From Alphaproteobacteria bacterium (GTDB lineage: Bacteria > Pseudomonadota > Alphaproteobacteria > JABAAW01 > JAHZMA01), in NCBI GenBank assembly GCA_965206365.1, contig CBDBJL010000016.1, positions 130,283 to 194,282 on the forward strand: a stretch of 64,000 bases of DNA. Direction: 5' to 3'. This document shows positions 15,132 to 38,014 of the stretch, in pieces; position 1 is the first letter of the stretch, and each line of letters begins with the position of its first letter. The position numbers and the translations under genes were made by a program. Under the pieces are notes generated by a model. The model searched no databases. It saw only the letters and a list, made by a program, of their open reading frames with translations, and was not told where the DNA came from.

Positions 15132-15766
15132 TCTATCAAAATCTAAAATCATTACGCAACTACAAAGCAGCCAGAATTGATGGTTAAATTATTTGCCATT
15201 TTATTTCTTCTTCAAAGCGGGCTTGTGCGTTCAATCAACAAAATATCAATAAAGTCACCCTTTTTTGAGCTTTCCCTTTAAGAAAATTTTTATCGTTCAT
15301 GGCCATGATCCATGACAGCGGGTGATTATGGTTATTCTAAAGCTGAAGGCGCAGAAAAAGTTAGTGCCAGAATTTTATCTTGGAAATAGGGATGATATGG
15401 CATCTTTTGGTCGTGAAAAAATGGTAATTTAAAAAGGAACATGAAAGGTGCCGTCTGACACAGAGGGTATTTCCGTAGAAGGCAGCTTGAGTTTGTAATA
15501 ACCAAAGCAAGAATGCTTAATAAAATTTTAGGAGCCGAAAGAAAACCCAAATTCTGTTGCTAAGGTAAGGCTCTGCAAAAAATAATGGTGGCAAGTATTT
15601 TTTCAAGTTATTTCCCTAGAATCTTATTATTAAGTATGGTGAAATTTATTACTAGTTTGAAGATTAGTTTTTATTAAACAGTCATGTATATGAAAAATAA
15701 TTTTTTTTTACCATACCATTCGTACTTGATAATCTACAATGATCATTGAAGTTTCTTTTGTTCCTG

Positions 15767-15943
15767 CTAATTCATTCGCTGTTTCAAGCATACGTTATGA
15801 TAGCTAGTATAAATTCCCTCAAAGTCCCTTTTAATGTTTTCGTATTTATGCTTTTCTAAGCATTCTTCTGCCTGCGCAGAATTTACGATACGCAAGCTGA
15901 AGATAAAGCCGGCGCCGATAAGTGTTTTGACAGATTTATTCAT
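15767..15943 (-). CDS. Small secreted Cys-containing peptide (Sec signal ...IVNSAQA|EECLEK...)
   Basis: 58-aa ORF starting MNKSVKTLIGAGFIFSLRIVNSAQA with AxA cleavage site, mature ~33 aa with 2 Cys; partial nucleotide copy at 30131-30185. Confidence 0.35.
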   Translation of the reverse strand: MNKSVKTLIGAGFIFSLRIVNSAQAEECLEKHKYENIKRDFEGIYTSYHNVCLKQRMN

Positions 15944-16061
15944 TGTTGTCTCCTCAATGAAATAGTGAAAAATTAGAAATTTTTCTATAGCGAAAAACAT
16001 GCTAAAAGATGGCTAATGATCGTCAGAAATATTTAGAATATCAATTTGGGAATAATCTAAA

Positions 16062-16208
16062 TAATTTTGTAGAATTCCATATATTTTTGCCTCCATATAT
16101 CCGGCGTTAGCCTCTTTCGCATTTCTAAATTTTCCGCGACGCCCTCGAATGCCTTAACTGCATTGTCTAAATCTCTTCGATTAATATCTGCAAAAGTAGA
16201 TTGCATAT
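16062..16208 (-). CDS. Small hypothetical protein (49 aa, MQSTFADINRRDLDNAVKAFEGVAENLEMRKRL...)
   Basis: Short ORF below the ORF-track cutoff; coding-like but unsupported by homology. Confidence 0.2.
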
Positions 16209-16277
16209 AATTTTCGTCTTATCGTTTCATAAGGATAAATCGCACTGCACCTTTTATCGAAAAATTATCAAGAACGA

Positions 16278-16580
16278 ATGATTTTTCTATTGCGCAAAAC
16301 GGTGCCAAGGCTTCTCGCAATATTAATCATAGTGCCAAAATTGCGAAAACATTTCCATCACATAAATATTCCTGATGCGCTTATAGTGGCAGATGGTGAC
16401 CAATGGGATTTGCTACAAAGTGATTTGGCGAATAATATAGGATACAAAATTTCAGCATATCAGGAGGTGATGAAAAAAGATTTCAGAAATTCAGCGGCCG
16501 CTTCAAGCGGAGGAGCTGGGTGACGATACTATTGCGATATTTAGGTTCGGAGATTTCACCGGTTGGATTATTAAAAAAAA
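16278..16580 (+). pseudogene. 3' remnant of a class I SAM-methyltransferase gene, paralogue of 59038-59619, frameshifted
   Basis: 16500-16580 translates to EELGDDTIAIFRFGDFTGWIIKKNSN* versus EELGDDIIEVFRFGDFTGWIIEKNSN* at the C-terminus of the 59038-59619 protein; upstream segment (KISAYQEVMKKD) matches in another frame. Confidence 0.55.
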
Positions 16581-16767
16581 CTCAAACTAAATCATTTGAT
16601 ATAATAGTTTAAAAATTTATTCTAAAACTGAAAAAACTTAAACCATGTTTCGAATAAGAGCAAACCATGTTTCTTGCATTTCCCGTCACATAGGAAAATT
16701 TTAAGAAAACCCTGGAAGAAAACCCTGGGCTGGAAATGCTAAGGGCGCATCATCTGCCCGACATTTT

Positions 16768-17070
16768 TTGGCCTCCAGTAATTTTGTCTCCCCCCAAAGC
16801 TACACCAAAAATAACTTAAACGCTCCCGTGGATGATCGTGAGACCAAAACCTTGGCACGCCCACCGCAAAATCCTGGAGGCACGTATGTAAGAGATCTTG
16901 ACGGCGCATCGCCTTTGGTCTTAAAGGACCGATTTAAATTGGGCGCAAGCTCGGCAGTATTTTCCAAGGGACGGCCTTACCCAATATCGACTTTCATGAA
17001 CCCGCGGTCTGCTAAGTTTTTCGCTATAGCAGCAGGCACAATCGGCGACCTAAGTAACGAAGAATGGTAG
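16768..17070 (+). CDS. Hypothetical protein
   Basis: 100-aa ORF in a gene-poor patch; no motif. Confidence 0.2.
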   Translation: MASSNFVSPQSYTKNNLNAPVDDRETKTLARPPQNPGGTYVRDLDGASPLVLKDRFKLGASSAVFSKGRPYPISTFMNPRSAKFFAIAAGTIGDLSNEEW

Positions 17071-17342
17071 ACAAGTTAAACAGAGGGAAATTTTTGCAAA
17101 AATGTGCGTGGCAATCTCACCCGTAAGCGCAGTTATCACAACTCAAACAATCGCTATTTGAACCAGCGGATTAAAATCGGGTGGTGGTTCAGCAAGGGTT
17201 GCCACGAAAGAATTTGATAATAAGAGCTTTTTGCGAAAAAAATGGGCAATATGTTTTATTTTTTAGAGGATAAGGATTAAAATATTTATTCTCTGATAAT
17301 AAATTTATACCTTAGACTAGGAAATTTTATTGGCGCGCATGA

Positions 17343-18506
17343 TTATTTATTCTGTAATTTACGCGCTAGCTTTTCTAGCATATTCAACGATGATTGCAAT
17401 TGCCCGAGCGAGATAAATTCATCAGCCTTATGGGCTTGTTCTATAGAACCTGGACCGCAAACAACCACATCCATGCCCATCGATTGAAACAGCCCCGCCT
17501 CGGTACCAAACGCCACAAGCTCTCGATTGTTCTTACCGGTTAATTCAGCCACGAGCTCTATGGCTTTGTTATTTTCAACCGGTATCAGCCCTTCTACCTC
17601 GCCCACAATATGAGTGATAATGTTTGACTCGCCATAAATTTTTTGCATCTTAGGCAAAAGATGCTGGTGACAATATTTATGCATTTCACCTTTCACAAAA
17701 GCCGCATCTGTATCTTGTACGGGGCGCAGATCCCAAGCTACTTGGCAAGAAGCAGCAATCACATTAGAGGCAATGCCACCATGAATAGAACCGATATTAA
17801 GCGTGGTGAAAGGCGGGATAAATTTCCCATTTTGTGGCGATCGGTCAGCAAGCTCTGTGCGTAATGATTTAAGGTAGGCAACATAATCAACAGCATATTC
17901 TACGGCATTAACCCCAAGTTCGGGGCGCGAACCATGCCCCGGTAGGCCTTGAAATTCGGTTACATATTCATAGCAACCCTTATGGCCTTCAATCATCACC
18001 ATCTCGGTTGGCTCACCAATAATCGCCATCGCTGGGCGAATTTTTTTTTCGACCAGAATTTTAATTAACTCTTGGGCACCAAGGCAGCCCGTCTCTTCAT
18101 CATGGGTGAAGCTGAAATGCAGAGGTCGCGATAAAGGCGCTGAAGTAAATTGGGGGCATAAAGCCAAACAAGTGGCAATAAAGCCTTTCATATCGCAACT
18201 ACCGCGACCATATAATTTCGCATCGATTGCCACCATTTTGAAAGGATCATTGAACCAATTCTGCCCCTCTACAGGGACAACATCACTATGGCCCGATAAA
18301 ACAATACCGCCTTCGCTCATGGGCCCGATTGTGGCAAATAAATTGGCTTTGTTTTGGCTTTTATCGTAAAAAATTGCAACAGAGATGCCAAAACTATCAA
18401 GATAATTCGCAATATATTCTATAATATCTAAATTGCTTTGCGCGGAAATGCTCGGGAATGCAATTAAGTCGCGTAAAATATTTTGAGTTTTTTCTAGTAA
18501 AGTCAT
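17343..18506 (-). CDS. M20-family metallopeptidase/deacylase (ArgE/DapE family)
   Basis: SGHSDVVPV, HDEETG and EGHKG metal-binding motifs. Confidence 0.75.
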   Translation of the reverse strand: MTLLEKTQNILRDLIAFPSISAQSNLDIIEYIANYLDSFGISVAIFYDKSQNKANLFATIGPMSEGGIVLSGHSDVVPVEGQNWFNDPFKMVAIDAKLYGRGSCDMKGFIATCLALCPQFTSAPLSRPLHFSFTHDEETGCLGAQELIKILVEKKIRPAMAIIGEPTEMVMIEGHKGCYEYVTEFQGLPGHGSRPELGVNAVEYAVDYVAYLKSLRTELADRSPQNGKFIPPFTTLNIGSIHGGIASNVIAASCQVAWDLRPVQDTDAAFVKGEMHKYCHQHLLPKMQKIYGESNIITHIVGEVEGLIPVENNKAIELVAELTGKNNRELVAFGTEAGLFQSMGMDVVVCGPGSIEQAHKADEFISLGQLQSSLNMLEKLARKLQNK

Positions 18507-22199: not shown

Positions 22200-22356
22200 T
22201 ATGGAAATTCACCACAAAGCATTGAGCCTCTGCCCGGTAAACCAAGCAAAGGCCTAAATTATCTTAGGCGAACCTAAGAAATATCTTTCAGATGTATTAT
22301 AAAATACACCCTTACTATAGCCCTTAATCCATCCCAAACGAATTATGCTATACGAA
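22200..22356 (-). ncRNA. Candidate tracrRNA (tracr-1): long imperfect anti-repeat followed by two hairpins
   Basis: Minus strand 22353->22315 reads GUAUAGCAUAAUUCGUUUGGGAUGGAUUAAGGGCUAUAG, complementary to the crRNA repeat with a UU bulge after a 6-bp lower stem; followed by hairpins UGUAUU-UUAU-AAUACA (22293-22308) and CUUAGG-UUCG-CCUAAG (22263-22278); 3' end undefined. Confidence 0.55.
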
Positions 22357-22576
22357 ACCACAATATGTGCCAAAAACAAAAAAAGACCCACAATGCTAAC
22401 CAAAACCCATCATCAAAAACAAATTTAGAGACAGGCTCGTAATTTCATCGAACTACTAACGCCCTACTTTATCATAAATTCTAGAGTAAGACAAACCTTA
22501 TTTATCAGTTTTGTTGGAATAATCTTAACAACAAGGATAAAACATCAAATAACAAAGCATTGAGCCTCCGTAACTG

Positions 22577-22660
22577 AAAAAAAAGACTCAACTATACTTA
22601 GGCGAATCTAAGAGATATCTTTCAGATGTATTATAAAATACATATTTTCTATAGTTCCCG
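22577..22660 (-). ncRNA. Second tracrRNA-like module (tracr-2): 11-nt perfect anti-repeat at the 5' end, same hairpins, U8 terminator
   Basis: Minus strand reads GGGAACUAUAG (22659->22649, perfect complement of crRNA repeat nt 2-12), then UGUAUUUUAUAAUACA and CUUAGAUUCGCCUAAG hairpins, AGAUUC/GAGUCU stem, UUUUUUUU (22584->22577); candidate extended -10 TGTTAGAAT at 22674->22666 places the TSS at the anti-repeat. Confidence 0.4.
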
Positions 22661-22756
22661 CCGATATTCTAACATAATTTTTGGCATTTTTATTTTCTAA
22701 AAAATATTACAAAGACACCTATTAATAGATATCATCGGTGAATAAAAAGATGTAAT

Positions 22757-22764
22757 ATTGACAC
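22757..22764 (+). promoter_or_regulatory. Candidate extended -10 (TGTAATAT) for cas9
   Basis: TGn-TAATAT ~48 nt upstream of the cas9 ATG; SD AAGGAG at 22796-22801. Confidence 0.25.
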
Positions 22765-22811
22765 TTAATTGTGTATTTAAGGGGGATAAGGCGCAAAGGA
22801 GCTTCAAAGTA

Positions 22812-25800
22812 ATGGTAAAAAAACAACCCAGAAACCCTCAAAATTATATTTTAGGAATTGATGTTGGAGTCGGCTCGCTAGGCGTTGCCTTAATTGCAAT
22901 CGATGGGGATACGCCTAGAATTTTAAATGGTAGTTCGTTAATTTATCCCAGTGCAAGTGGAAATAGTGACAGGCGCACCCATAGGTTAGCGCGTAACTAC
23001 TTCCAAAATCGGACAAAACGTAAGAAATTGCTTCAGAAGAAACTAACAGAGTTTTTGCAATTACAAGGTGAAGGATATCGGATCGGGCAAACCCATATCA
23101 AACCCTATAACGCCGAAAGATTTCCCAAAGTTAAGAATAAAAAAAATAACTCTTGTGTGGCGTTACGCGCCATGGCTTTGGATGAACAACTAACTTTACC
23201 TGAATTATTTCGAGTTTTTATGCACCTTGCAACGCATCGCGGAGTCCGCCTTACCAAAGCAATCAAAGAGGCTGAGCAAAAAGAAACCGGTGTGCTGAAA
23301 CAAGCGATACAGGAATTGCAAGAGCAAATGCAAACAGCAGACAATACAGGAAAAATGATTCGCACTGTGGGTGAATATCTTGCCAAGCAAGAAAAAAAGG
23401 GTCAGGCTATAAAGTTGCGTCCAGATGCTTTTAATAAACGAGCTATTTTTCTACTCACGTGCGATGATTATCAAAGAGTTTGACCAGATTATTGCCAAGC
23501 AACAAGAATATTACCCTGAAATTTTTACACCGGAAAATATTCAACTTATAAAAGAAGGCTCTCTTAAAAAAACAATTGAAGGTAAAGAAAGAATAATTGG
23601 TTATGGGATTTTTTGTGAAAAAGGTGCGTATCAAAGCGCGATCGAAGAAAAAATTGGTTATTGTTGTTACCTTCCGGAAGCGGGGACCATAAGAGAGAAA
23701 CGAATTGCAATCGCTTCTAATTTGTTTCAAGAAAAGCGTTTGCTCGAACAAATTAATAATCTCCGTATTTATCAAGGTGCAAAAGCTGGCGGTGAAGCCG
23801 GGGATGGCAAATTAACTTTAGCGCAACGCGATCTTGTTTATGAAAACATGCTCGAGGAAAAAGAGGCGGTTAAGGGAAATAAAATTGGGAAATGGCTTAA
23901 TTTAGCCAGTAATTCTCGCCTTAATATTGATGCAAGTGGCAAAAAAAAATCCGAACAAGTGATCCAACCTCATGTAATTCTTGCCACAATCAAAAAAACC
24001 AAAAATTCTGAACTTTTTGCAACATGGCAGAGTTTAAGTGCTGAGGCGCAGGATTATGCAGTTAAATTATTGCATGATGAGGGGGAATTAGATGCAAATA
24101 TGAAAGCATGGGTAGAAGAATTTCCTGATTTTCCGCCCGATTGGATTGAAACATTACAAAATATTATTTTGCCACGAGGCTATGCGGCAACGGGCACCAC
24201 TGCCACTTCGAAATTGATTGCAGAATTACGCGCTGATGTGATTACTCATTACAAAGCTGAAATACGCGCTAAACTCAAACATCCTACATCTGAACCCACA
24301 GAAGATTATTTGCCATATTACGGAAGATTGCCCTCCTTAGAACATTATTGTCAGGGGGCAAGCAAGCATCCGGCCGAACCATTAGAAAAACAATTTGGTA
24401 AAATCCCCAATTCGGTCGTGCATCAATCACTCAATAAAATTCGCAAAATTCTCAACACCTATATTAAAGAATATGGTCCGCCACAAAAGATTCACCTCGA
24501 ACTTGCACGCGAGTTAAATAAATCACTTAAGGAACGTGAGAACGAGGATAAAAAAAATCAAAAAAATCAAAAAAAAAATACTAAATATAATGATAAAATC
24601 CTCACCTATAGGGACCGAACCTCGCGCAAATATCGACGCGCCTTAAAATTACATGAGTGGCAACTCCCTAAACAACAAAAAAAATTATACAAAGAGCAAA
24701 AATGTATTTGCCCGTATTCAGGAACAGAAATCAGCATTGATGATATTTTTACTGGCAAGGCCGAAATTGATCATATTTTGCCTTATTCTCAAACCATGCT
24801 CGATAATATTAGTAATTTGGTGTTATGCACAAAAGAAGCGAATTCGAAGAAGAAAAAGCAAACCCCTTACGAAGCTTTTTCTGGTGGCTATCCTGATGGA
24901 ACTGGTAGAACTTATGATGATATTCTCACAACGATTGCAGATTATCCAGAATATAAGAAGAAAAAATTTAATGAAGATGCGATGGCGCATTTTAAAAATA
25001 AAAATCTTTTCGCAACCAGATTTAAAACCGATACCCAGTATTTGGCAAAAGTGGTTCATAATTATTTAGGATGCTTAAAATTAAATCCTATCAACCAACA
25101 GCAAGATGAAAAGCATGAAAATAACCCTGAATCACAGCATGATGCTCAAGATAAAATCGACGGTGAAGTAAAGAAAAAAAGGATTATCTGTCTTTCCGGC
25201 GGTATTACCGCTGATCTGCGACATCATTGGGGCTTGGGCAATATCCTCCAAAATTTTGAACAAGATAGCCTCACCAGTGTCGGACGAGAAGAAATGGCTG
25301 ATAATATTAACAAAGATTTTTTGCAATATATCAAAACTAGACAAATCGATTTACAGAAACAGGCGAAAAAAAAGGTGCTCGATGAAGCTGAGCAAAAATT
25401 TCTCGCAATTAATCTTGCCGAACTTCAAACAAATCAGCGGGGCGACTGGGATGATTATGTTAAAAATATATTTAGGGATCGTGAAAATAAAGCAAAAAAG
25501 AATCGCCTGGATTATCGTCATCATTTCATTGATGCGATTGTGATCGCTTGTACCAATGCCTCGGAAGTAAATAGGCTTAATGCGGCAAATGCAAATTATC
25601 GAAACCAAAAAACCGAGAATACGCAAAGTTTTTACCAGCAAAAACAACAGCACCGAATCGAGCATTCAGGCGTTAAAAAACATCCCTTAAATTGGGTGAA
25701 TTTTTGCCAAGATGTTAAAGATTATTTGCGCGCTCATCCTAATTTAATCGTGCAAAATCCTAATTTCAACAGTGCATCGCGCCAGATCCATGAAGAAACT

Positions 25801-26823
25801 AATTATCGCAAAATTATTGATATTTATACTCAGAATAAAACCACACAAGCAGAAAATTATCTTCAATCTCTTGTATCCAGCCGACAATCTTTGGATAATT
25901 TAGTTGCAGAGAAAAGTTTTGATGCTTTGCTCCCAAAAAAAGAGGATTGGATGCAAACATTGCGCAAGAAAAACAGCATTTGTAAATCTCCGATCGGGGA
26001 TCGACCTCGATTTTCGCCGGAAGAATTGGAAATTGAAATTACAAAAATTACAGCGAAACTTGCAGTTCAGGCCGAAATCAAACAATTTTTAGAAGATAAA
26101 TTTCATGGAGCCAAGAAAGAAAAACGCGTTATTTATGAGGCAACAAAAGATAAGCTAGTAAAAGATAAAATCGTAAAAGGTGAACCCGAAGAAGAAAAAT
26201 TGGTAAAAACCTCTGTGCCAGAACAAATGGCATGGGCAATTACAGAATATAAAAACCGGAAAAGCAAAGGAGAAATTAACACAATATTTGGGCGCAAATA
26301 TTTCACAATCTATAAATATCTCACAGTGATTGAAATTAGAAATAAATCCCTTGAGACAGACTTAAAACAACAAAGACAAAATATCCCCACCCGCCCGCAA
26401 CGTGTGGTGGTAACCGGCAATAATTCGCATAGCGATATTTTCTACTATTACGATGACAATGGTGCCCGCCAGATTGGGTGGGAATGTATTGCCGTTATCG
26501 CTGTACGAAAAGCAGATTACCAACCCGCATGGCGGCAAAAATATCCTAAGGCGAAATTAATTGGGCAATTGCGCATTAATGATACGCTTCAAATTTGGAA
26601 CAATCCTGATCCCGAAGCTCCCCTGCGCAAAAGAATTTTGGTACGGGTACAGAAAATGTCGAAAGGATATATTAGTTTTTCGCACTTGCAACGTTCCAAA
26701 ACCGAAAATATGAGTGCTCCTTATCGGAAAGTTTCATCCATTGGTCTTTTTCAAGCTTTTGCACCCAAATTGGTCAAGCGTGATGTTACGGGCAAGGTTT
26801 ATTATCATCGTAAATTATATTAA
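22812..26823 (+). CDS. cas9: Cas9 (type II-C), ~1336 aa, interrupted by a +1 frameshift in a T5 tract at 23443-23447
   Basis: RuvC-I GIDVGVGSLGVALIA, Arg-rich bridge helix RRTHRLARNYFQNRTKRKK, RuvC-II KIHLELARE, HNH EIDHILPYSQTMLDNISNLVLCTKEANSKK, RuvC-III HHFIDAIVIACTN; ORFs 22758-23483 and 23425-26823 join seamlessly if one T is removed (..NKRAIF|YSRAMIIKEF..). Confidence 0.85.
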
Positions 26824-26836
26824 AGGAAGCTATTTT

Positions 26837-27748
26837 ATGTGGAGAATTTTGGATATTGGGCAAGATCATCGAAGCTTGTTGGTAAAAAATCATCAATTAG
26901 TGATTAAAAATAACACAGCATCTTCTAAAAATATTCTAGCAACTCTGAATTTTAACGATCTTCATGCCATTATTCTCCATGGTCATGGCATCTGGTTAAG
27001 TCGAAATGTGCTGGATCAGGCAGGTGAACATAATATTCCTGTGATTATTTGCAATGCCCAGCATATTCCCCAAACCATAACTCTGCCCGTAGTAGGGCAT
27101 TATCATTATCAGCAACGCGTTCATGGGCAAATTACTATTACACTTGCCCGACGTAAGGGTTTGTGGAAAAAAATTGTTCAAGCCAAAATCAAGGCACAAG
27201 CCTATTTGCTGAAATCTTATCAATTGCCCGAAGCCGATAGGCTGGAAGCCATGTTGGCAAAAGTTCTTGCTGGTGATGCGAATAATCACGAGGCCCAAGC
27301 AGCTCGTATCTATTGGCAGGCATTATTCGGCAGTGATTTTCGACGCAATATCGAACAACCAGGGCTAAATGCACATCTGAATTATGGTTATGCAATTTTA
27401 CGCGCATCGGTAGCGCGCTTTATTGTGGCATCGGGTTTATTACCCGCAATTGGGCTGAATCACCATAATAAGCTGAATCCATTTTGTTTTGTGGATGATG
27501 TTATGGAACCATTTCGCCCGTTAATTGATCGGTTGGTGCGTACGCATCATAAGCCATTTGCCAATCGGGTGACTCCTGAAAATAAAGCAATTTTAAGCGA
27601 TATTATCAATCACCAGCTCTATTATCGTGACGAAAATATTTCAGTGCAACATGCGGTTCAAAATTTATGCCATAGTTTTGCCCAGATTTTTTTAGGGGAA
27701 GAGAAAAATCTTGCCTTACCACCCATTATTTTTACCAATCAATTATAA
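26837..27748 (+). CDS. cas1: Cas1 integrase
   Basis: Conserved LNYGYAILRA and ...GLNHHNKLNPF... motifs; starts 14 nt after cas9 stop with SD AAGGAAG. Confidence 0.9.
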   Translation: MWRILDIGQDHRSLLVKNHQLVIKNNTASSKNILATLNFNDLHAIILHGHGIWLSRNVLDQAGEHNIPVIICNAQHIPQTITLPVVGHYHYQQRVHGQITITLARRKGLWKKIVQAKIKAQAYLLKSYQLPEADRLEAMLAKVLAGDANNHEAQAARIYWQALFGSDFRRNIEQPGLNAHLNYGYAILRASVARFIVASGLLPAIGLNHHNKLNPFCFVDDVMEPFRPLIDRLVRTHHKPFANRVTPENKAILSDIINHQLYYRDENISVQHAVQNLCHSFAQIFLGEEKNLALPPIIFTNQL

Positions 27749-27749
27749 T

Positions 27750-28076
27750 ATGCTATCGGGATATAAAACAATGTGGCTATTTATCATGTTTGATTTGCCA
27801 ACTAGCAATCGGGCTGAAGCCCGTAGTGCGAATCAGTTTAGAAATCACCTGTTACAAGAAGGTTATATTATGAAACAATTTTCTGTTTATATGCGTTATT
27901 TTGACAGTAAAAATCGCGCAAATTCGTCGCTTAGCCGAATTCAGCAGAAAATTCCACAACAAGGTATGGTGAGTGCATTATTTGTTACGGATCGACAATT
28001 TGGGCAAATTCAGAATTTTTATGGCAAAAAACCCAAAAAAAACGACGAGAAACCGACCCAATTACTGTTATTATAG
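27750..28076 (+). CDS. cas2: Cas2
   Basis: MLSGYKTMWLFIMFDLP... N-terminus typical of type II Cas2; ~108 aa; immediately precedes the array. Confidence 0.85.
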   Translation: MLSGYKTMWLFIMFDLPTSNRAEARSANQFRNHLLQEGYIMKQFSVYMRYFDSKNRANSSLSRIQQKIPQQGMVSALFVTDRQFGQIQNFYGKKPKKNDEKPTQLLLL

Positions 28077-28148
28077 GGGAATTATGTGCATTTTTTACAC
28101 GAATAAATCCCTGGAAACCATTTCATATCAAGGGTTTCCAGGGATGCT

Positions 28149-28910
28149 AGTATAGCATACTTCGTTTGGGATGGGAACTATAGCATTATTTTCAAAAGCC
28201 GATATTCCATAATAAGTATAGCATACTTCGTTTGGGATGGGAACTATAGCTACCAATACGTTGCATTTGCCCAAGAAATCAGTATAGCATACTTCGTTTG
28301 GGATGGGAACTATAGCTTGCGGCTCGTATTTTGGTAGAACAATTAAAGTATAGCATACTTCGTTTGGGATGGGAACTATAGCAAGATAATCCAAAAATCC
28401 ATGTTAAAATCAAGTATAGCATACTTCGTTTGGGATGGGAACTATAGCATCAACCATTCAATCACTGCAGCAAAGTCAAGTATAGCATACTTCGTTTGGG
28501 ATGGGAACTATAGCTAGCAACAGTGCCAGCAATGGTAAAACGCAAGTATAGCATACTTCGTTTGGGATGGGAACTATAGCAAAATATGATCAAGGGGTTC
28601 GTGACGTTTAAGTATAGCATACTTCGTTTGGGATGGGAACTATAGCATCAAACAGCAACAAGCTTGGCAAATAACTAGTATAGCATACTTCGTTTGGGAT
28701 GGGAACTATAGCCAACGCGGGTTTCGCCGTAAGCTTGCTTGGAGTATAGCATACTTCGTTTGGGATGGGAACTATAGCCAACAGGCAAATGCAAGTTCGA
28801 CATTGTTGAGTATAGCATACTTCGTTTGGGATGGGAACTATAGCTAGCAACAGTGCCAGCAATGGTAAAACGCAAGTATAGCATACTTCGTTTGGGATGG
28901 GAACTATAGC
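28149..28910 (-). CRISPR. CRISPR array: 12 identical 36-nt repeats (AGTATAGCATACTTCGTTTGGGATGGGAACTATAGC on +), 11 spacers of 30 nt; transcription inferred on the minus strand
   Basis: Exact 66-nt periodicity, repeats start at 28149+66n; minus-orientation repeat GCTATAGTTCCCATCCCAAACGAAGTATGCTATACT ends in an extended -10 (TGcTATACT), like the Neisseria II-C repeat promoter; spacers 6 and 11 identical. Confidence 0.95.
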
Positions 28911-29443
28911 TCGTTTACGGTAATATCGTAAAATGGTTCTATGCGTTCTAGTTTTTTAGTCCTTTCTTGGGGGTTAATTTTACCGTCTCCGTCTTCATCG
29001 CCTTTTAAAAAGGCTTCTTGTAGTGCTTCATGGGCACTGCAATCAACCGCTTGTGGGTCAAAATTCCAAAAGCGGTCGCGTAAATGTTTTTTTATTAAAG
29101 CTGATACTGTCCTTAGCTCGCAGGTGATGTTGGTTAGATGCTGAACGCACGTATCGCAACCAACAACACCCGATAGGCTTGCCACTGTCCCCGTAACCTC
29201 TGCCATACCGTCAAGATCCGCAACAGTTTCAGTGATCCCGGCTTCGATATCTCTAAATGTAGAGGATTGTTGCCGTGCAACATTGGTAAGGTTAATGCCG
29301 TTATTAGCAATAGATAATAAGTGTGCTGTATTTGCTGGGTTAGCATAAGCTTTAGCTATTTCATAAAGTGGTTCACCATAGCGCAAGGTAATGAAGGATA
29401 AGATAATGGCAAGATAAAGCGATGAATGGTTGGGCTTTTCCAT
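28904..29443 (-). CDS. Hypothetical protein with canonical EF-hand Ca-binding loop (DEDGDGKINPQE)
   Basis: 12-residue EF-hand loop with D1,D3,D5,G6,I8,E12; ORF terminates 2 codons inside the last CRISPR repeat. Confidence 0.4.
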   Translation of the reverse strand: MEKPNHSSLYLAIILSFITLRYGEPLYEIAKAYANPANTAHLLSIANNGINLTNVARQQSSTFRDIEAGITETVADLDGMAEVTGTVASLSGVVGCDTCVQHLTNITCELRTVSALIKKHLRDRFWNFDPQAVDCSAHEALQEAFLKGDEDGDGKINPQERTKKLERIEPFYDITVNEL

Positions 29444-29474
29444 GATTAAAGAGTCTTTTTATGTGGGTTTTATT

Positions 29475-30035
29475 TTATTTGGGGTTAATTACTTTATTAT
29501 AAATTTTTAAATATTTATGTCCGTTTGTAATTTCAGAATTTAACAAACAATTATTTTGATCAAAAACATAGATTGCTTTTTTTTCACCATCTGCTGTTCC
29601 TGCTGTACCAATAATTAATGCGCTAGTGCCGTTGCTTTTGGTGATTTGATTAGCAACAGCAAGAGCCGCGCCTTTGCTTACATCTAACGTCTTGAACGGA
29701 TTAAAATCAGACGCAACCTCTGCTTTAGACTGATATTGCTTGCAACCCTCTGATGCTTGCGCATTAACCATAATTAAAAAGGTAATGCCAGTAATCATGA
29801 AAATTATGGCTACAAAACGATAGATAACATTCATTACTTTGGTAATGCCAGTTTCATCCCTATAGGCTTTGCAAATTAGCGGGTGGATAATATTTTCGGT
29901 GATTACATATCGGATTCTTTTAAATACAAAACTGCCTGTATTAAGCAAAAAAATGCCAAAATTACATAAAATGATATTCATAGCTTTTGTATCAAGCTGG
30001 TTGCCGATAAGTAGTCTTTTGGTAAGGTTATTCAT
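29475..30035 (-). CDS. Hypothetical small secreted/membrane protein (possibly VirB5-like by position)
   Basis: Internal start MNVIYRFVAIIFMITGITFLIMVNAQA|SEGCKQY gives a Sec-type signal; lies immediately downstream of the virB4 fragment. Confidence 0.3.
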   Translation of the reverse strand: MNNLTKRLLIGNQLDTKAMNIILCNFGIFLLNTGSFVFKRIRYVITENIIHPLICKAYRDETGITKVMNVIYRFVAIIFMITGITFLIMVNAQASEGCKQYQSKAEVASDFNPFKTLDVSKGAALAVANQITKSNGTSALIIGTAGTADGEKKAIYVFDQNNCLLNSEITNGHKYLKIYNKVINPK

Positions 30036-30192
30036 TATATATCTCCTTAATGAAGGGTTAAAGAAAAAGGTATGTTTTGATAGCGCAAAAAATATGCCAA
30101 AAAATGTATGATAATGATGTGATTTAATTATTTGTTTATTTTATATTTATATTTGTCTAAGCATTCCTCCGCTTGTGCAGGGTTAGTTAAAA

Positions 30193-31233
30193 TTATATAT
30201 ATTGTTGTTGCCAGCTTTCTGGATTCAATTCTTTTAGCATATTTACTTTTTTTACAGCTTCAGCCCCGCCTTCAAAGGTTTTAAGCGCGTTGCCTAAGCC
30301 TATTAGGTTAATGTCTATGAAAGTTGATTGGGTATATTCTTCGTCTTGACGTTTGATTAGAATGGGTCTAACCGCGCCTCTAATCTCAAAGTTTCCTAGT
30401 ACAAATTCTTTTTCGGTTTCAGTAAGTTTAAATTTATCTAATTCTTCAGGATTATCTGACGTTCTAGGAAAGAAAATAAATGTTTGAGTATTGGTAATTA
30501 ATGAATTGCTGGTTTTGCCTAAGTTTGTGAGTCCTGAAACTTCTTGAAAGATAAGATTAAGAACACCATTGGATTTTCTGATGGTTCTGATATATTGTTG
30601 GATTTGCTCGGCGAAAAATTTATCTTGTAGCAAGGTTGCGCTTTCATCAACAATCATTAATGAAGGTACTGAATTAGTTTCGCAATGATTTTGTATTTTG
30701 GTAAGAAAATATGAGATTAATACTCGGAATAGATTTTCATCTTTTATGACTTCATCCATGCCGGATGCCATAAATTGACTATTTGCAATATTAAAACTAT
30801 CATGAATTCCATGAAAAATTTCCTTATATTTGCCGTCTGCGAAAGGACGTAAAAGGTCTTTAAATTTGCTTTGTGGGATGGCTTTGTACCATGTTTTTTT
30901 GAAGGTGGTTTTTTCAAGAGAGAACGAATTTTGAATAGATTCTTGGATGATTTCTTCGTATTCTGTATTATTTACAGAGATTCCAGCAATGGTTTTAAGA
31001 AAACTTGTTAAATTTTGTACATATAGAGATTTATTAGGAATATCAAATGGATTTAGATCTAATTTATCAACGTTTAACATTAGATATTTACCGTCAATTA
31101 CTTTACTGAATACTTCCATGCCTCGCTTAATATCAAATCCATAGACTTTTAACTTTCTGTAGCGTGCGATTGCTTGAGCCGCGAGGAATAATATCAAAAC
31201 TGTCTTCCCACTGCCTGAGGGTGCAAAAATCAT
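30193..31233 (-). CDS. VirB4/TraC/TrbE-family type IV secretion ATPase, C-terminal domain only (N-terminal ~440 aa missing)
   Basis: Walker A FAPSGSGKTVLILFLAAQ (cf. VirB4 G-P-T-G-S-G-K-S-V-L-L-N-F-L), Walker B LMIVDES, RKSNGVLNLIFQE and TQTFIFFP motifs in VirB4 order; first Met 3 nt from an orphan CRISPR repeat. Confidence 0.6.
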   Translation of the reverse strand: MIFAPSGSGKTVLILFLAAQAIARYRKLKVYGFDIKRGMEVFSKVIDGKYLMLNVDKLDLNPFDIPNKSLYVQNLTSFLKTIAGISVNNTEYEEIIQESIQNSFSLEKTTFKKTWYKAIPQSKFKDLLRPFADGKYKEIFHGIHDSFNIANSQFMASGMDEVIKDENLFRVLISYFLTKIQNHCETNSVPSLMIVDESATLLQDKFFAEQIQQYIRTIRKSNGVLNLIFQEVSGLTNLGKTSNSLITNTQTFIFFPRTSDNPEELDKFKLTETEKEFVLGNFEIRGAVRPILIKRQDEEYTQSTFIDINLIGLGNALKTFEGGAEAVKKVNMLKELNPESWQQQYI

Positions 31234-31236
31234 GCT

Positions 31237-31272
31237 AGTATAGCATACTTCGTTTGGGATGGGGGCCATAGC
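31237..31272 (-). repeat. Orphan degenerate CRISPR repeat (33/36 identical), 2.3 kb beyond the array
   Basis: AGTATAGCATACTTCGTTTGGGATGGGGGCCATAGC versus consensus ...GGGAACTATAGC; the embedded TGcTATACT -10 is intact and points into the virB4 fragment. Confidence 0.85.
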
Positions 31273-31294: not shown

Positions 31295-32131
31295 TCAAGT
31301 TTTTTTCAAGGAAATTAATTTGTAAATTTTATATTTCTCAAAATTTTCTTGATTACGATTCTTGCTATACTTAAATTGGAGCTTAGCAATTTTTTTCCGT
31401 GAAAAATATTTAATAATGCCATAGATAATTTTTTTCCTATGCGTTAAAAATTTGTCTAAAATTTGACACACCGGTATTAACCGATTCACAATCACTTCAT
31501 TCACCAAAGCCATGTTTGGCGAGACATTGCGCGTTACATCAAGATCAGAAATAATTTTATAATTACTTGCTGCGATTAACCGATCAAAATTACCAAGCGA
31601 ATGCCCGCCCCCAAGTGGCGAGCGCCCGTCAATATTATCACGACTGAAAAAATCAAAAATCACAACATTCCCCAATGGAGTTAATATTTCATCCAGAACA
31701 CGCAATGATTTTTCCATATCAACATATTGAAAACTTTCACTAAAAAAAACCAAATCATACTTTATACCCGAATACAAACCTTTATCGATAAAATCTTCAA
31801 ATCCACATTGATAAAAAATTGCTTCCGATATTTCTCGACATTGCTGAATCATCATCTTAGATGGAATAATACCTTCAATATTTTGATAACCCATTGCCTC
31901 TAGCTTTTTGATATTTTGACCAACCCCACAACCAACATCTAAAATTCGCGCCTGCTTATTCGATGAAATTAATTCTTCAATATGGCCAAAAAGAACCTCT
32001 GAATAACGTTCTTGCGCTGCAATGAAATCTTTGATTGTTGGGATCGCACCTTCTTGCCAAAAACCATAATGCAGATCCTCAACGTCTAATATTTTTTGGG
32101 CCATTACCAAACCCATTTCTTTACTATCCAT
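31295..32131 (-). CDS. Class I SAM-dependent methyltransferase
   Basis: Motif I ILDVGCGVGQN; start taken at MDSKEMG.. to avoid overlap with tRNA-Trp. Confidence 0.6.
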   Translation of the reverse strand: MDSKEMGLVMAQKILDVEDLHYGFWQEGAIPTIKDFIAAQERYSEVLFGHIEELISSNKQARILDVGCGVGQNIKKLEAMGYQNIEGIIPSKMMIQQCREISEAIFYQCGFEDFIDKGLYSGIKYDLVFFSESFQYVDMEKSLRVLDEILTPLGNVVIFDFFSRDNIDGRSPLGGGHSLGNFDRLIAASNYKIISDLDVTRNVSPNMALVNEVIVNRLIPVCQILDKFLTHRKKIIYGIIKYFSRKKIAKLQFKYSKNRNQENFEKYKIYKLISLKKT

Positions 32132-32190
32132 AGATTGCCCCCTTCTGCATCTGTTTTTAAGAACCAAAATCCTAAATATGCCATCCCCGA

Positions 32191-32266
32191 TCCAAGAATA
32201 TGGCAGGAGCGGAGGGACTTGAACCCGCAACCCCCGGTTTTGGAGACCGGTGCTCTACCAATTGAG
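32191..32266 (-). tRNA. tRNA-Trp (anticodon CCA)
   Basis: Reverse complement AGGAGTGTAGCTCAATTGGTAGAGCACCGGTCTCCAAAACCGGGGGTTGCGGGTTCAAGTCCCTCCGCTCCTGCCA folds as a cloverleaf; CCA encoded. Confidence 0.9.
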
Positions 32267-32303
32267 CTACACTCCTAAATATTGCCACTATCACTATGGT
32301 TTG

Positions 32304-32377
32304 TGGAGCGGGTGATGGGGATCGAACCCACACAGCTAGCTTGGAAGGCTAGAATTCTACCATTGAACTACACCCGC
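32304..32377 (-). tRNA. tRNA-Gly (anticodon TCC)
   Basis: Reverse complement GCGGGTGTAGTTCAATGGTAGAATTCTAGCCTTCCAAGCTAGCTGTGTGGGTTCGATCCCCATCACCCGCTCCA; acceptor GCGGGTG/CACCCGC. Confidence 0.9.
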
Positions 32378-33117: not shown

Positions 33118-35604
<2,487 letters not shown>

Positions 35605-35663
35605 TTAATTTTTAGAAAAAACACAATTCTTCTGCAAAGAATATGCACAGAAAATTAGTAACC

Positions 35664-36872
35664 CTAATCTAACTTATAATGAAGGTATTTGTCATCTAAA
35701 TACTGCAGAAAAACTGCATCTGTACCCGTAAAAAACAACTGAACATCCAAATGCAACAAATAATCGTATAAAAATTGTAAATGCTGAGAATCAAGATGGG
35801 CCCCAATATCATCAAGTAATAAAATTGGACGCGGCCCCATCTCACCAAGCATTAATTGTAATTGTGCCAAAATTAACGAAAGCAAAATAATTTTTTGTTC
35901 CCCTGTTGAGCAAGATTGCGCCAAAACAGAGAAAGATTTAGCTTCAGAGCCAAAATCTTTGTTGCCAAGATCAGAATGAGAAGGACATTGATAATATCGA
36001 ATAACAATATCAGTTAAATGTACCCCATAATGGGTTCGATTATAGGTTTGGTCACGCTTTCGATTATCGAATAATTTTTGCTGATAATCTTGTTCGCCTT
36101 GAACCGCCCCACCATCCAAAATTTTAGGGTCATTGCCGCCGGTTAGCTCCATGATAATGCTAGGGAAATTGACAATTTTTGGTATATGGGTAATTTGATT
36201 TAATCGAAAAACAATCTGCTTGCGCATCACCGCAATCGAAACCGCTCGCATTGCCATTTCTTGCTCGATAATATCCAACCAAGTTTTATTCCCTCCTTGC
36301 AGTAATAAAATTAATCGCTCACGCATTTGTTGCTCGTAAGCTTTCAGCCGACCATAATGACTTTTATCAAACAAAATAGCCGTGCGATCGATGAATTTCA
36401 ATCGTGCCATCCGTCCATCTTGAAATAACCGCGCCATTTGGGGAACATACCATAACATTCGCAAATGTTCATCTAAAGCTTGTTGTGACGATTTCTCATT
36501 GCCGTTAATCATAATATGGCGACGTTTTTGATGGAAACTATTTTCCGAATTTTGCTGACACGAAAACCCTGTTGCCAAACGCGTTAATTGAGCATTATTG
36601 GCAACAACCGCCTGAATTCCCCAATCACGGATCAGTCGTGGCGATGTTAATTCTGGATTTGCCAAAGCATCATTGGGGTGAACCGCAAAGGGCAGAATAT
36701 CTTCCAGTTTTGCATTTCGTAACCCCCGGCCTGAAACTAAAAATGATAACGCCTCTAAACAGTTGGTTTTGCCAGCACCGTTACTTCCTGTAAACAGAAC
36801 CACACGACTCTCTGTAGCAAATTGTGCTTGCCGATGATTGCGAAAATGAGAAAGTGAAAATTCCTTAATCAC
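35664..36872 (-). CDS. recF: DNA replication and repair protein RecF
   Basis: Walker A GSNGAGKTNCLEAL; conserved position between dnaN and gyrB. Confidence 0.9.
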   Translation of the reverse strand: MIKEFSLSHFRNHRQAQFATESRVVLFTGSNGAGKTNCLEALSFLVSGRGLRNAKLEDILPFAVHPNDALANPELTSPRLIRDWGIQAVVANNAQLTRLATGFSCQQNSENSFHQKRRHIMINGNEKSSQQALDEHLRMLWYVPQMARLFQDGRMARLKFIDRTAILFDKSHYGRLKAYEQQMRERLILLLQGGNKTWLDIIEQEMAMRAVSIAVMRKQIVFRLNQITHIPKIVNFPSIIMELTGGNDPKILDGGAVQGEQDYQQKLFDNRKRDQTYNRTHYGVHLTDIVIRYYQCPSHSDLGNKDFGSEAKSFSVLAQSCSTGEQKIILLSLILAQLQLMLGEMGPRPILLLDDIGAHLDSQHLQFLYDYLLHLDVQLFFTGTDAVFLQYLDDKYLHYKLD

Positions 36873-36892
36873 AAAAACAAAAGCAAACTTGC

Positions 36893-38014
36893 CTAAACCC
36901 GCATCGGCATTAATATATACAAAGCTTGACTATTATTAATATCCCGAATAATCGTTGCTGCACTATTATCCAACCAACAAAACTCTGCCATAGCCCCAAT
37001 ATTATCCACAATATCGAGTAAATATTTGGCATTATACCCAATTTCCAACGCATCATCGTTATATTCAACATCCATTTCATCGTTGGCTTCGCCATGTTCT
37101 TGTGAGCGCGTTGTCAATTCTAACCGATTCGTTACAACATGTAATTTTACCGCACAAGAATCATCGCTGAAAATATTAACCCGCTCCACCGAACGGCGCA
37201 ATTTGGGGGCATCAACTTGCATTTTTTTCTCATTATTTTTTGGAATCACCCGCTCATAATCAGGAAATTCACCCCCAATTAATTTACTCGTTAAGTTAAT
37301 GGCATCAATTTCAAAGCGTGCCAGTTTTTCACTCACCTTAATTTGCAATTCTTGCGTGTTATTCTCACATAATTTAATTAATTCACCAATCGCTTTTCGT
37401 GGAATAATGATTCCTGGAATGGCTTCGGCACCCTTGGGGCAATCACCGGCAAAATATACCAATCTATGCCCATCAGTGGCAACAAAACAAAGACTTTCAT
37501 CACGGTAATGCACATAAATACCATTAAGATAGTGGCGCATAGTATCGGTAGATATTGCTAATTTCACTGTCTTTAATGCCTGAGCAAAATCTTTCGCTAC
37601 CATTGTAAAATGTACAGCAAAGGGTCCTTGTTCCGGGTTGGGGAACTCACTGCCCTCGTGCAAAGAAGTATCAGAAGTATAATCGAGAACATTCAATGCA
37701 AAACGACTCTTCCCCGATTGAACCTTAACGTGATTATCACTAACAGCCACTTCGATAATTGCCCCCTCAGGTAATTTGCGGGCAATTTCATAGGCGAGTT
37801 TTGCCGGGATGATACTCTCACCCTGCTCTGAAATTTCCGCCACAACCGTTTCTTGAATGAACACTTCTTTATCAGTGCCTGTAAGCTCAATTCCTTCTGC
37901 CACAGTGCGAATTCTGATATAGGATAATAAATTTTGCGCATGCCGCTGCTCAATCACACCATGAACATGTTCTAAAGCACTCACTAAAATCGCGCGATCA
38001 ATAGTAAATTTCAT
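36893..38014 (-). CDS. dnaN: DNA polymerase III beta sliding clamp
   Basis: 373 aa, N-terminus MKFTIDRAILVSAL..., three-domain length; synteny dnaN-recF-gyrB. Confidence 0.9.
   Translation of the reverse strand: MKFTIDRAILVSALEHVHGVIEQRHAQNLLSYIRIRTVAEGIELTGTDKEVFIQETVVAEISEQGESIIPAKLAYEIARKLPEGAIIEVAVSDNHVKVQSGKSRFALNVLDYTSDTSLHEGSEFPNPEQGPFAVHFTMVAKDFAQALKTVKLAISTDTMRHYLNGIYVHYRDESLCFVATDGHRLVYFAGDCPKGAEAIPGIIIPRKAIGELIKLCENNTQELQIKVSEKLARFEIDAINLTSKLIGGEFPDYERVIPKNNEKKMQVDAPKLRRSVERVNIFSDDSCAVKLHVVTNRLELTTRSQEHGEANDEMDVEYNDDALEIGYNAKYLLDIVDNIGAMAEFCWLDNSAATIIRDINNSQALYILMPMRV

What the first reader, a model, noticed from the sequence alone, without database searches (positions are those of the whole stretch)
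22200..28910. Complete minimal type II-C CRISPR-Cas9 system with an unusually long Cas9 orthologue
The locus is tracr x2, cas9, cas1, cas2 and the array, with no csn2 or cas4. That gene content defines it as II-C. Cas9 is ~1336 aa and very Lys/Asn-rich, so it is potentially a distinct orthologue with its own PAM, from a host lineage where few Cas9s are characterised.
Basis: partly seen in the sequence, partly recalled or inferred. Interest (0 to 1): 0.6.

Follow-up and report, generated by a model that had tools for sequence, protein, structure and literature searches.

The report
Divergent type II-C CRISPR-Cas9 locus, frameshifted
This is a real but ordinary-in-kind minimal (type II-C) CRISPR-Cas9 immune locus from a poorly sampled alphaproteobacterium; its Cas9 is only 45% identical to the nearest known relative, but as sequenced its gene is broken by a one-base frameshift.

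Summary
At 22200-28910 there are two tracrRNA-like units, cas9, cas1, cas2 and an array of 12 identical 36-nt repeats with 11 spacers (10 unique). No csn2 or cas4 is present, so the gene content is type II-C. Cas9 groups with Neisseria/Geobacillus-type II-C enzymes. Its nearest relative is a 45%-identical Cas9 from an uncharacterised alphaproteobacterial MAG, so it is a distinct orthologue.

Three corrections apply:
- **"Complete" is not shown.** cas9 is two ORFs as sequenced. The 1336-aa protein appears only after one T is removed from a T5 run at 23446-23450. About 50 other ORFs in the window showed no comparable break, so the frameshift is probably real.
- **Only tracr-1 is a full tracrRNA.** tracr-2 keeps the scaffold but only 11 nt of anti-repeat.
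- **1336 aa is long only for its own clade.** Cas9 is Lys-rich but not Asn-rich.

The repeats end in TGCTATACT, an extended -10 box, on the strand opposite the cas genes. This points to Neisseria-like crRNA transcription from within each repeat. No protospacer was found, so no PAM can be inferred.

Outside the given coordinates, a degenerate 13th repeat lies at 31238-31272. It is separated from the array by 2.3 kb of low-GC DNA carrying a truncated virB4/trbE gene.

Verdict: a new member of a known kind, of modest interest.

The parts
22205..22356 (-). tracr-1, the full tracrRNA candidate. Anti-repeat at about 22353->22314, then a hairpin (UGUAUU-UUAU-AAUACA), a GAAA-loop nexus-like hairpin and a long 3' hairpin.
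   Evidence: 25 nt are 96% complementary to every repeat (I2-I13). The duplex with the crRNA repeat is -47.2 kcal/mol: a 9-bp lower stem, a 5-nt tracr bulge and a 14+10 bp upper stem. The fold is -52 kcal/mol with z = -5.99. A promoter-like site TTGGCA-17-TAGCAT lies at 22373->22345.
22552..22660 (-). tracr-2, a truncated paralogue of tracr-1. It has the same scaffold but only 11 nt of perfect anti-repeat (GGGAACTATAG).
   Evidence: Alignment A2 and repeat families D3 and D15. The duplex is only -19.9 kcal/mol. The fold is no better than shuffles, z = -0.57. An extended -10-like TGTTAGAAT read from the sequence lies just upstream on the minus strand.
22681..22708 (+). Putative cas9 promoter (TTGGCA-16-AATATT), divergent from tracr-2.
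   Evidence: Consensus scan. A similar TTGCAT...TAATAT sits at the same place next to the tracr in relative L001. Inferred, not tested.
22812..26823 (+). cas9. Encodes 1336 aa only if one T is removed. As sequenced it is a 223-aa N-terminal ORF (stop codon at 23481-23483) plus an 1132-aa ORF in the +1 frame.
   Evidence: The repaired join IFYSRAM matches relative P0003 exactly. The catalytic D17, E563, H654, N677, H904 and D907 are invariant in alignment A1.
23446..23450 (+). Frameshift site: a T5 run where T4 restores the reading frame.
26837..27748 (+). cas1, type II/NMENI class, intact.
   Evidence: TIGR03639 at 258 bits covering profile positions 1-277 of 278. PADLOC Cas1_II, E = 3.5e-96.
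27750..28076 (+). cas2, intact.
   Evidence: TIGR01573 at 65 bits. PADLOC Cas2_II, E = 5e-39.
28109..28143 (.). Inverted repeat CCCTGGAAACC...GGTTTCCAGGG between cas2 and the array, probably a two-way terminator.
   Evidence: Read from the sequence. Relatives have a different-sequence hairpin at the same place. Inferred.
28149..28910 (-). CRISPR array of 12 identical 36-nt repeats and 11 30-nt spacers (spacer 6 = spacer 11). Probably transcribed on the minus strand from an extended -10 (TGCTATACT) at the end of each repeat.
   Evidence: In related II-C loci, 19 of 65 have TGnTAnnnT at this repeat end in the cas-antisense orientation and 0 of 65 in the sense orientation. Nme and Cje precedent.
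28911..31236 (-). 2,326 bp of low-GC DNA between repeat 12 and the 13th repeat. It carries a truncated virB4/trbE (30193-31233), ORF186 (29475-30035) and ORF179 (28904-29443).
   Evidence: TIGR00929 matches only profile positions 441-788 of 792. Alignment A3 shows that the conserved block before the P-loop is missing. GC is 31-34% against about 39%. ORF179 ends with a stop codon inside repeat 12. Neither small ORF has homologues.
31237..31272 (-). Solitary degenerate 13th repeat with 3 mismatches, all in its last 10 nt. Probably the original cas2-distal terminal repeat.
   Evidence: In 59 related loci, degenerate extra repeats occur only at the cas2-distal end: 5 loci there and 0 at the proximal end.

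Best explanation
This is a chromosomal type II-C CRISPR-Cas9 locus in an alphaproteobacterium with no close sequenced relative. It belongs to a small, divergent Cas9 clade.

**How it most likely works (inferred from sequence and from the Neisseria/Campylobacter precedent)**
1. Each 36-nt repeat carries an extended -10 promoter (TGCTATACT) on the strand opposite the cas genes.
2. Short crRNAs therefore start inside each spacer and run into the next repeat.
3. The first roughly 33 nt of that repeat pair with the anti-repeat of tracr-1, which is transcribed divergently upstream of cas9.
4. Cas9, whose RuvC and HNH catalytic residues are all present, would bind this duplex and cut matching DNA next to a PAM that remains unknown.
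5. Cas1 and Cas2 would add spacers at the cas2-proximal end.

**Present state (shown)**
- cas9 is interrupted by a one-base insertion in a T run. As sequenced, interference is probably off, and recently so: the rest of cas9, cas1, cas2, tracr-1 and all 12 repeats are intact.
- tracr-2 is most likely a decaying tandem copy.
- The far end of the array has taken up a 2.3-kb fragment of a conjugative-element type IV secretion operon.
For: - **Family assignment.** Cas9, Cas1 and Cas2 match their families strongly, and no csn2 or cas4 is present.
- **II-C relatives.** Nme1, Nme2 and GeoCas9 are the best solved matches.
- **Conserved layout.** The three nearest loci (L001-L003) have cas9-cas1-cas2 in the same order. 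L001 and L003 also show near-identical repeats, and L001 and L002 a divergent upstream tracr.
- **Catalytic residues and repair point.** Both are supported by alignment A1.
- **tracr-1.** Its duplex with the repeat is -47.2 kcal/mol with the usual bulge, and its fold has z = -5.99.
- **Repeat promoter.** The -10 element at the repeat end is a clade-wide trait seen only in the cas-antisense orientation. This matches the published Nme and Cje behaviour.
- **Chromosomal setting.** The locus lies next to gyrB, recF and dnaN.
- **Frameshift probably real.** About 50 other ORFs in the window showed no comparable break; 20 were scanned, including three overlapping same-strand pairs that are distinct genes.
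Against: - No expression data exist. The promoters, RNA ends and strand of the array are inferred.
- No protospacer was found for any spacer, so immunity against real targets is unproven.
- Rfam has no matching tracr model.
- The frameshift could be a consensus error in a homopolymer, in which case the system would be intact.
- The word-index protein search and the capped genome scan could have missed a closer relative. Singleton clustering of ten proteins in the window argues against that.
Confidence: 0.8

Rival explanations
1. The system is fully intact. The extra T at 23446-23450 is a sequencing or assembly error, and the cell makes a normal 1336-aa Cas9.
For: - The break is a single base in a homopolymer.
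- Removing it restores a join identical to a relative (IFYSRAM).
- No other lesion is seen in 4 kb of cas9, and cas1, cas2, tracr-1 and all repeats are pristine.
Against: - A T5 run is short for a homopolymer error.
- No other gene in the 64-kb window shows such a break.
- The public gene call for this contig also starts after the break (P0001, 1119 aa).
Confidence: 0.3
2. cas9 is expressed despite the break, either by +1 ribosomal slippage on AUU-UUU-C or as two polypeptides that reassemble (a natural split Cas9).
For: - UUU-C allows tRNA-Phe to re-pair in the +1 frame (read from the sequence).
- Both halves keep long open frames.
Against: - No stimulatory element is evident.
- Relatives have a continuous gene.
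- No Shine-Dalgarno sequence precedes the ATGs of the second ORF.
- The split would separate RuvC-I and the bridge helix from the rest of the protein.
Confidence: 0.04
3. tracr-2 is not a dead copy but a working small RNA. It could be a short-anti-repeat tracrRNA like that of relative L001, or a tracr-derived scaRNA-like RNA that binds Cas9 for a regulatory role.
For: - It sits at the ancestral position next to the cas9 promoter, where L001 and L002 have their only tracr.
- Its 11-nt anti-repeat is a perfect match, and an extended -10-like TGTTAGAAT would start transcription right at it.
- L001 manages with an 18-nt perfect anti-repeat.
- CRISPR-associated scaRNAs with an sgRNA-like shape exist in N. 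meningitidis type II-C (PMC13431127).
Against: - Its fold is no better than shuffled sequence (z = -0.57), and the 13-bp stem of tracr-1's 3' hairpin is replaced by a U-rich stretch.
- The closing pair of the UUCG hairpin is lost.
- The duplex is only -19.9 kcal/mol.
- No relative has a second copy.
Confidence: 0.15
4. The ORFs between the array and the tRNAs (methyltransferase-like ORF311, the ATPase ORF358, ORF186 and ORF179) form a separate defence operon, and the 13th repeat is incidental.
For: - PADLOC gives weak hits to mad8 (8e-11) and mad2 (5e-6).
- The genes are closely spaced on one strand.
Against: - MADS is an eight-gene operon, and only generic ATPase and methyltransferase similarity is seen here.
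- The ATPase matches VirB4 far better (168 bits).
- It lacks the conserved block just before its P-loop, so it is truncated.
- The repeat copy is 32 of 35 identical to the array repeat, with zero such matches expected by chance.
Confidence: 0.05

Closest known systems
Neisseria meningitidis type II-C CRISPR-Cas9 (Nme1Cas9/Nme2Cas9; PDB 6JDQ, 6JDV)
   Same: - The cas9-cas1-cas2 and array gene set, with 36-nt repeats and NMENI-class Cas1.
- A -10-like element ending each repeat.
- Array orientation opposite to the cas genes, which is inferred here and shown for Nme.
- Among the best solved-structure matches: E about 1e-105 by profile.
   Different: - With the window Cas9 alone as query, the best matched stretch to the Nme chains covers only about residues 530-738.
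- The Cas9 here is 1336 aa against about 1082 aa. The extra length includes about 30 aa unique to this protein after residue 757 and about 80 aa in RuvC-III shared with P0002.
- There are two tracr units.
- cas9 is frameshifted and the PAM is unknown.
Cas9 of an uncharacterised Alphaproteobacteria MAG (GCA_022599575.1; P0002, locus L001)
   Same: - Nearest relative, 45% identical over 99% of the length.
- Same gene order.
- The repeat differs at 5 of 36 positions.
- Divergent upstream tracr.
- Shares the RuvC-III insertion.
   Different: - 1256 aa.
- A single tracr with an 18-nt perfect anti-repeat and a short one-hairpin tail.
- Intact cas9.
- An array of at least 40 repeats that runs to the end of the contig.
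Geobacillus stearothermophilus Cas9 (GeoCas9-type chain 9AR4; identity of the chain recalled from its sequence, not stated by the tool)
   Same: Best single-sequence PDB match (E = 2e-35). RuvC-I, HNH and RuvC-III all align.
   Different: Only three partial stretches align. The protein is 1082 aa and comes from a different host phylum.
scaRNA of type II loci (Francisella novicida; N. meningitidis, PMC13431127)
   Same: A second small RNA gene beside tracrRNA that resembles part of the guide-RNA scaffold.
   Different: tracr-2 is a tracr paralogue with a truncated anti-repeat. It has no shown expression, target or Cas9 binding, and its predicted structure is weak.

Membership tests
Type II-C CRISPR-Cas | Cas9 effector with RuvC-like and HNH nuclease domains | tested here: met
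   TIGR01865 at 436 bits, plus HNH_4, RuvC_III and Cas9_a. Catalytic residues are conserved. Caveat: the reading frame is broken at 23446-23450.
Type II-C CRISPR-Cas | cas1 and cas2 directly downstream of cas9, with Cas1 of the type II (NMENI) class | tested here: met
   TIGR03639 at 258 bits and TIGR01573 at 65 bits. PADLOC Cas1_II and Cas2_II.
Type II-C CRISPR-Cas | No csn2 (II-A) and no cas4 (II-B) in the locus | tested here: met
   All ORFs flanking the locus were scanned with Pfam, NCBIfam, PHROGs and PADLOC. None matched Csn2 or Cas4. Only this 64-kb window was examined.
Type II-C CRISPR-Cas | tracrRNA with an anti-repeat complementary to the CRISPR repeat | tested here: met
   tracr-1 forms a duplex of -47.2 kcal/mol, with 25 nt 96% complementary. 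In silico only.
Type II-C CRISPR-Cas | Cas9 sequence groups with II-C Cas9s | tested here: met
   The best solved matches are Nme1, Nme2 and GeoCas9-type II-C enzymes. The three nearest loci are cas9-cas1-cas2 only; the rest of the 80 related loci were not gene-checked. No formal tree was built.
Type II-C CRISPR-Cas | Active RNA-guided DNA cleavage and spacer uptake | not testable with these tools
   Needs expression and cleavage assays. As sequenced, cas9 is frameshifted.
Nme/Cje-style crRNA biogenesis (promoter in every repeat) | A -10 box at the repeat's 3' end, with crRNA 5' ends inside the spacers | tested here: inconclusive
   The sequence element TGCTATACT is present. The trait is shared by relatives in the antisense orientation only: 19 of 65 against 0 of 65. 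Transcription starts were not measured.
scaRNA (small CRISPR/Cas-associated RNA), considered for tracr-2 | An expressed small RNA that binds Cas9 and/or tracrRNA and acts on an endogenous target | not testable with these tools
   Only position, a promoter-like site and an 11-nt anti-repeat are seen. The fold is not significant.
MADS defence system, considered for ORF311 and ORF358 | Eight-gene mad1-mad8 operon | tested here: not met
   Only two weak generic hits, to mad8 and mad2. MADS is defined as an eight-gene operon.

The most novel reading that the evidence does not exclude
The far end of the array may record a recombination between old spacers and their target on a conjugative element. 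That would leave 2.3 kb of the element's type IV secretion operon (truncated virB4/trbE plus two orphan ORFs) sitting between repeat 12 and the degenerate terminal repeat like a giant spacer, and still placed behind a repeat-borne promoter. Under this reading the one-base inactivation of cas9 would be a linked outcome, namely escape from self-targeting of an element the cell kept. The identical ATGCTA next to the 13th repeat and next to repeat 1 would then mark a leader-type anchoring sequence or a microhomology junction.
Probability: 0.2. Interest if true: 0.5.

Novelty: new member of a known kind. Interest (0 to 1): 0.3.

Why it matters
If the repaired protein is active, it would add a Cas9 from a sparsely sampled branch, 45% identical to its nearest relative and under a third identical to the nearest named Cas9s (29-31%). 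It would come with its own guide-RNA scaffold and probably its own PAM, which is useful for widening the catalogue of type II-C enzymes. It does not change how type II-C systems are understood, and at 1336 aa it lacks the small size that makes II-C enzymes attractive as tools. The frameshift, the half-decayed second tracr and the conjugative-element fragment inside the array are small natural-history points about how such loci decay and rearrange.

Tried and rejected
- **Protospacers and PAM.**
  - The 10 unique spacers had no match in the rest of the window beyond 16 nt.
  - They had none in 50,697 phage records or 72,556 plasmids.
  - The repeat-proximal 22-mers of spacers 2, 6, 9 and 10 had none in IMG/VR.
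  - The 43 spacers of relatives L001 and L003 had none in phages.
  - No PAM can be inferred.
- **More family members.** Two repeat patterns found nothing in the metagenome contigs, and the looser one nothing in the viral contigs.
- **Source record.** An exact look-up of the public Cas9 fragment found no contig. The host is therefore placed only as an alphaproteobacterium, nearest by GyrB to Kiloniellales/Rhodospirillales.
- **Rfam.** Only the two tRNAs matched between 21500 and 32500. There was no tracr or CRISPR family.
- **13th repeat as a third tracr.** The + strand RNA from 31238 has no significant fold (z = +0.9).
- **tracr-2 flank similar to spacer 1.** This was family D18. The local alignment score of 23-24 is reached by 3-4% of shuffles and of random genomic windows, so it is chance.
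- **MADS.** Rejected.
- **Context for the virB4 fragment.** The best homologues are only 24-28% identical. ORF179 has no relatives beyond an EF-hand-like motif. Synteny with a known element could not be shown.
- **Widespread assembly errors.** Overlapping same-strand ORF pairs turned out to be distinct genes: SecB and CobO, LpoB and LPP20, RnpA and YidD.
Full report
**1. What is at 22200-28910**

ORF listing and family scans identify three cas genes on the + strand.

- **cas9.** It matches TIGR01865 (436 bits) and the Pfam domains HNH_4, RuvC_III and Cas9_a.
- **cas1.** At 26837-27748, it matches TIGR03639, the type II/NMENI class (258 bits, full profile coverage).
- **cas2.** At 27750-28076, it matches TIGR01573.

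Downstream lie twelve identical 36-nt repeats (A+GTATAGCATACTTCGTTTGGGATGGGAACTATAGC, 28149-28910). They are separated by eleven 30-nt spacers. Spacers 6 and 11 are identical, so ten are unique. No such match is expected by chance.

The flanking ORFs are a PLP-dependent enzyme and an M24 peptidase upstream, and three minus-strand ORFs downstream. None matches Csn2 or Cas4 in four libraries. The gene content therefore fits the published definition of type II-C (PMC3737331).

**2. cas9 is not one gene as sequenced**

- The N-terminal 223 codons (ATG 22812, preceded by AAGGAG) end at a stop codon at 23481-23483.
- The rest reads in the +1 frame to 26823.
- Deleting one T from the T5 run at 23446-23450 gives 1336 aa.
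- The repaired join...RAIFYSRAMIIKEF..., aligns without a gap to relatives, and P0003 has the identical IFYSRAM.
- D17, E563, H654, N677, H904 and D907 are invariant in that alignment, so nothing else looks damaged.

Twenty other ORFs were scanned, including three overlapping same-strand pairs that proved to be distinct genes. None of the roughly 50 other ORFs in the window showed a comparable break. Widespread homopolymer error is therefore unlikely. My estimates are:

| Explanation of the frameshift | Probability |
|---|---|
| Real, recent mutation | about 0.65 |
| Isolated consensus error | about 0.3 |
| Anything more exotic | a few per cent |

**3. Guide RNAs**

Two units on the minus strand upstream of cas9 share a scaffold of roughly 105 nt (82% over 73 nt and a 17-nt identical block).

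| Feature | tracr-1 (22356->22205) | tracr-2 (22660->22552) |
|---|---|---|
| Anti-repeat | long, imperfect | 11 nt, perfect (GGGAACUAUAG) |
| Duplex with the minus-strand repeat RNA | -47.2 kcal/mol | -19.9 kcal/mol |
| Duplex shape | 9-bp lower stem, 5-nt bulge, 14+10 bp upper stem | 11 bp only |
| Fold z-score against shuffles | -5.99 | -0.57 |

tracr-2 has also lost tracr-1's 13-bp 3' stem.

tracr-2 nonetheless occupies the position where the relatives keep their single tracr. That position is immediately divergent from a conserved cas9 promoter-like site. L001's tracr has only an 18-nt perfect anti-repeat. I read tracr-2 as a decaying tandem copy. A working short tracr or a scaRNA-like RNA is not excluded. 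Rfam has no model for either unit.

**4. Direction and biogenesis (inferred)**

The tracr strand requires crRNAs from the minus strand, opposite to the cas genes. In that sense each repeat ends in TGCTATACT, an extended -10 box.

Among 65 related II-C loci with arrays, 19 have TGnTAnnnT at that repeat end in the antisense orientation. None has it in the sense orientation, and by eye most of the rest end in a TAnnnT hexamer. This matches N. meningitidis and C. jejuni, where arrays are transcribed against the cas operon from promoters inside the repeats.

A hairpin between cas2 and repeat 1 (28109-28143) probably terminates both transcription directions. Relatives have a hairpin of different sequence at the same place.

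**5. Relatives, host and novelty**

- The only 100% hit is the same contig's own gene call, which starts after the frameshift (P0001).
- The next hits are 45% (an Alphaproteobacteria MAG), 37% (marine metagenomes), then about 30% (Pararhodospirillum, Parvibaculum, Nitratireductor and many Burkholderiales).
- The three closest loci share the gene order. L001 and L003 show repeats that differ at only a few positions, and L001 and L002 the upstream tracr.
- The best solved structures are Nme1, Nme2 and GeoCas9-type enzymes.

The locus is chromosomal. gyrB-recF-dnaN, FliX, chemoreceptor genes and cobalamin genes surround it. GyrB is at most 64% identical to any named taxon (Kiloniellales, Pelagibius, Rhodospirillales), and every protein tested is a singleton cluster.

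Its length is the top of its own clade (1024-1256 aa) and comes from several insertions. Many other Cas9 hits in the same search are 1400-1570 aa. It is Lys-rich but not unusually Asn-rich.

**6. Targets**

No spacer of this array matched the window, phages or plasmids. The four spacers tested as 22-mers found nothing in viral contigs. The spacers of its two closest relatives found nothing in phages. No PAM can be proposed.

**7. Beyond the given coordinates**

A 13th repeat copy lies at 31238-31272, with 3 mismatches, all at its far end. It sits 2,326 bp past repeat 12. The DNA in between has these features:

- It is low in GC, 31-34% across 30000-31200, against about 39% for the chromosome.
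- It encodes, all on the minus strand, only the C-terminal ATPase half of a VirB4/TrbE (TIGR00929 positions 441-788 of 792).
- Homology in that ORF begins four codons before the P-loop. The conserved block that precedes the P-loop in homologues is replaced by twelve codons read from the CRISPR repeat.
- It also encodes two orphan ORFs. The last one ends on a stop codon inside repeat 12.

In related loci, degenerate repeats occur only at the cas2-distal end. This agrees with what Chylinski et al. noted for Nme and Cje. The 13th repeat is therefore most simply the array's original terminal repeat, and the type IV secretion fragment sits where the oldest spacers were.

How the fragment got there is open. 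Candidates are spacer-target recombination, or an illegitimate insertion followed by deletion. One detail is unexplained: the six bases ATGCTA precede both this repeat and repeat 1. Weak PADLOC hits to MADS components are generic and were rejected.

**8. Verdict**

This is a real type II-C locus with a new, divergent Cas9 orthologue. It is a new member of a known kind. It is not demonstrably complete, it is not exceptional in size across II-C, and no PAM is available. Interest is modest at 0.3. The most unusual features are the paired tracr units and the conjugative-element fragment bracketed by repeats.

Noticed in passing
window 31237-31272 and 28911-31236: A solitary degenerate CRISPR repeat lies 2.3 kb beyond the array. 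The DNA between it and repeat 12 is low in GC and carries a virB4/trbE gene truncated exactly at the repeat, plus two orphan ORFs. It looks like a conjugative-element fragment caught inside the array.
   Followed up: partly
window 28144-28149 and 31232-31237: The same hexamer, ATGCTA, precedes repeat 1 and the solitary 13th repeat. Relatives have similar cas2-proximal flanks (ACATCTA, TTATGTA). It could be a leader-anchoring sequence or a microhomology junction.
   Followed up: partly
window 28515-28544 and 28845-28874: Spacers 6 and 11 are identical, while the spacers around them differ. This points to a repeat acquisition of the same protospacer or a single-unit duplication.
   Followed up: no
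window 28251-28280 and 28779-28808: Spacers 2 and 10 share an 11-nt stretch in opposite orientation (TTGCATTTGCC / GGCAAATGCAA). They may come from the same or related targets, or the overlap may be chance.
   Followed up: no
window 32201-32377 and 31295-32230: tRNA-Trp and tRNA-Gly genes, together with a class I methyltransferase-like ORF, directly flank the far end of the CRISPR region. tRNA genes are common integration sites for mobile elements.
   Followed up: no
window 33118-38014: gyrB-recF-dnaN lie 2-7 kb from the locus, so the CRISPR-Cas system sits near the probable chromosomal replication origin region.
   Followed up: no
window 15131-17343: A 2.2-kb stretch has no ORF over 100 aa and no Pfam match for its three longest small ORFs. 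Its content is unknown.
   Followed up: partly
L001 1-9816: In the closest relative, a gene for a protein of more than 3300 aa ends 185 bp upstream of cas9, and the tracr is squeezed into that gap.
   Followed up: no
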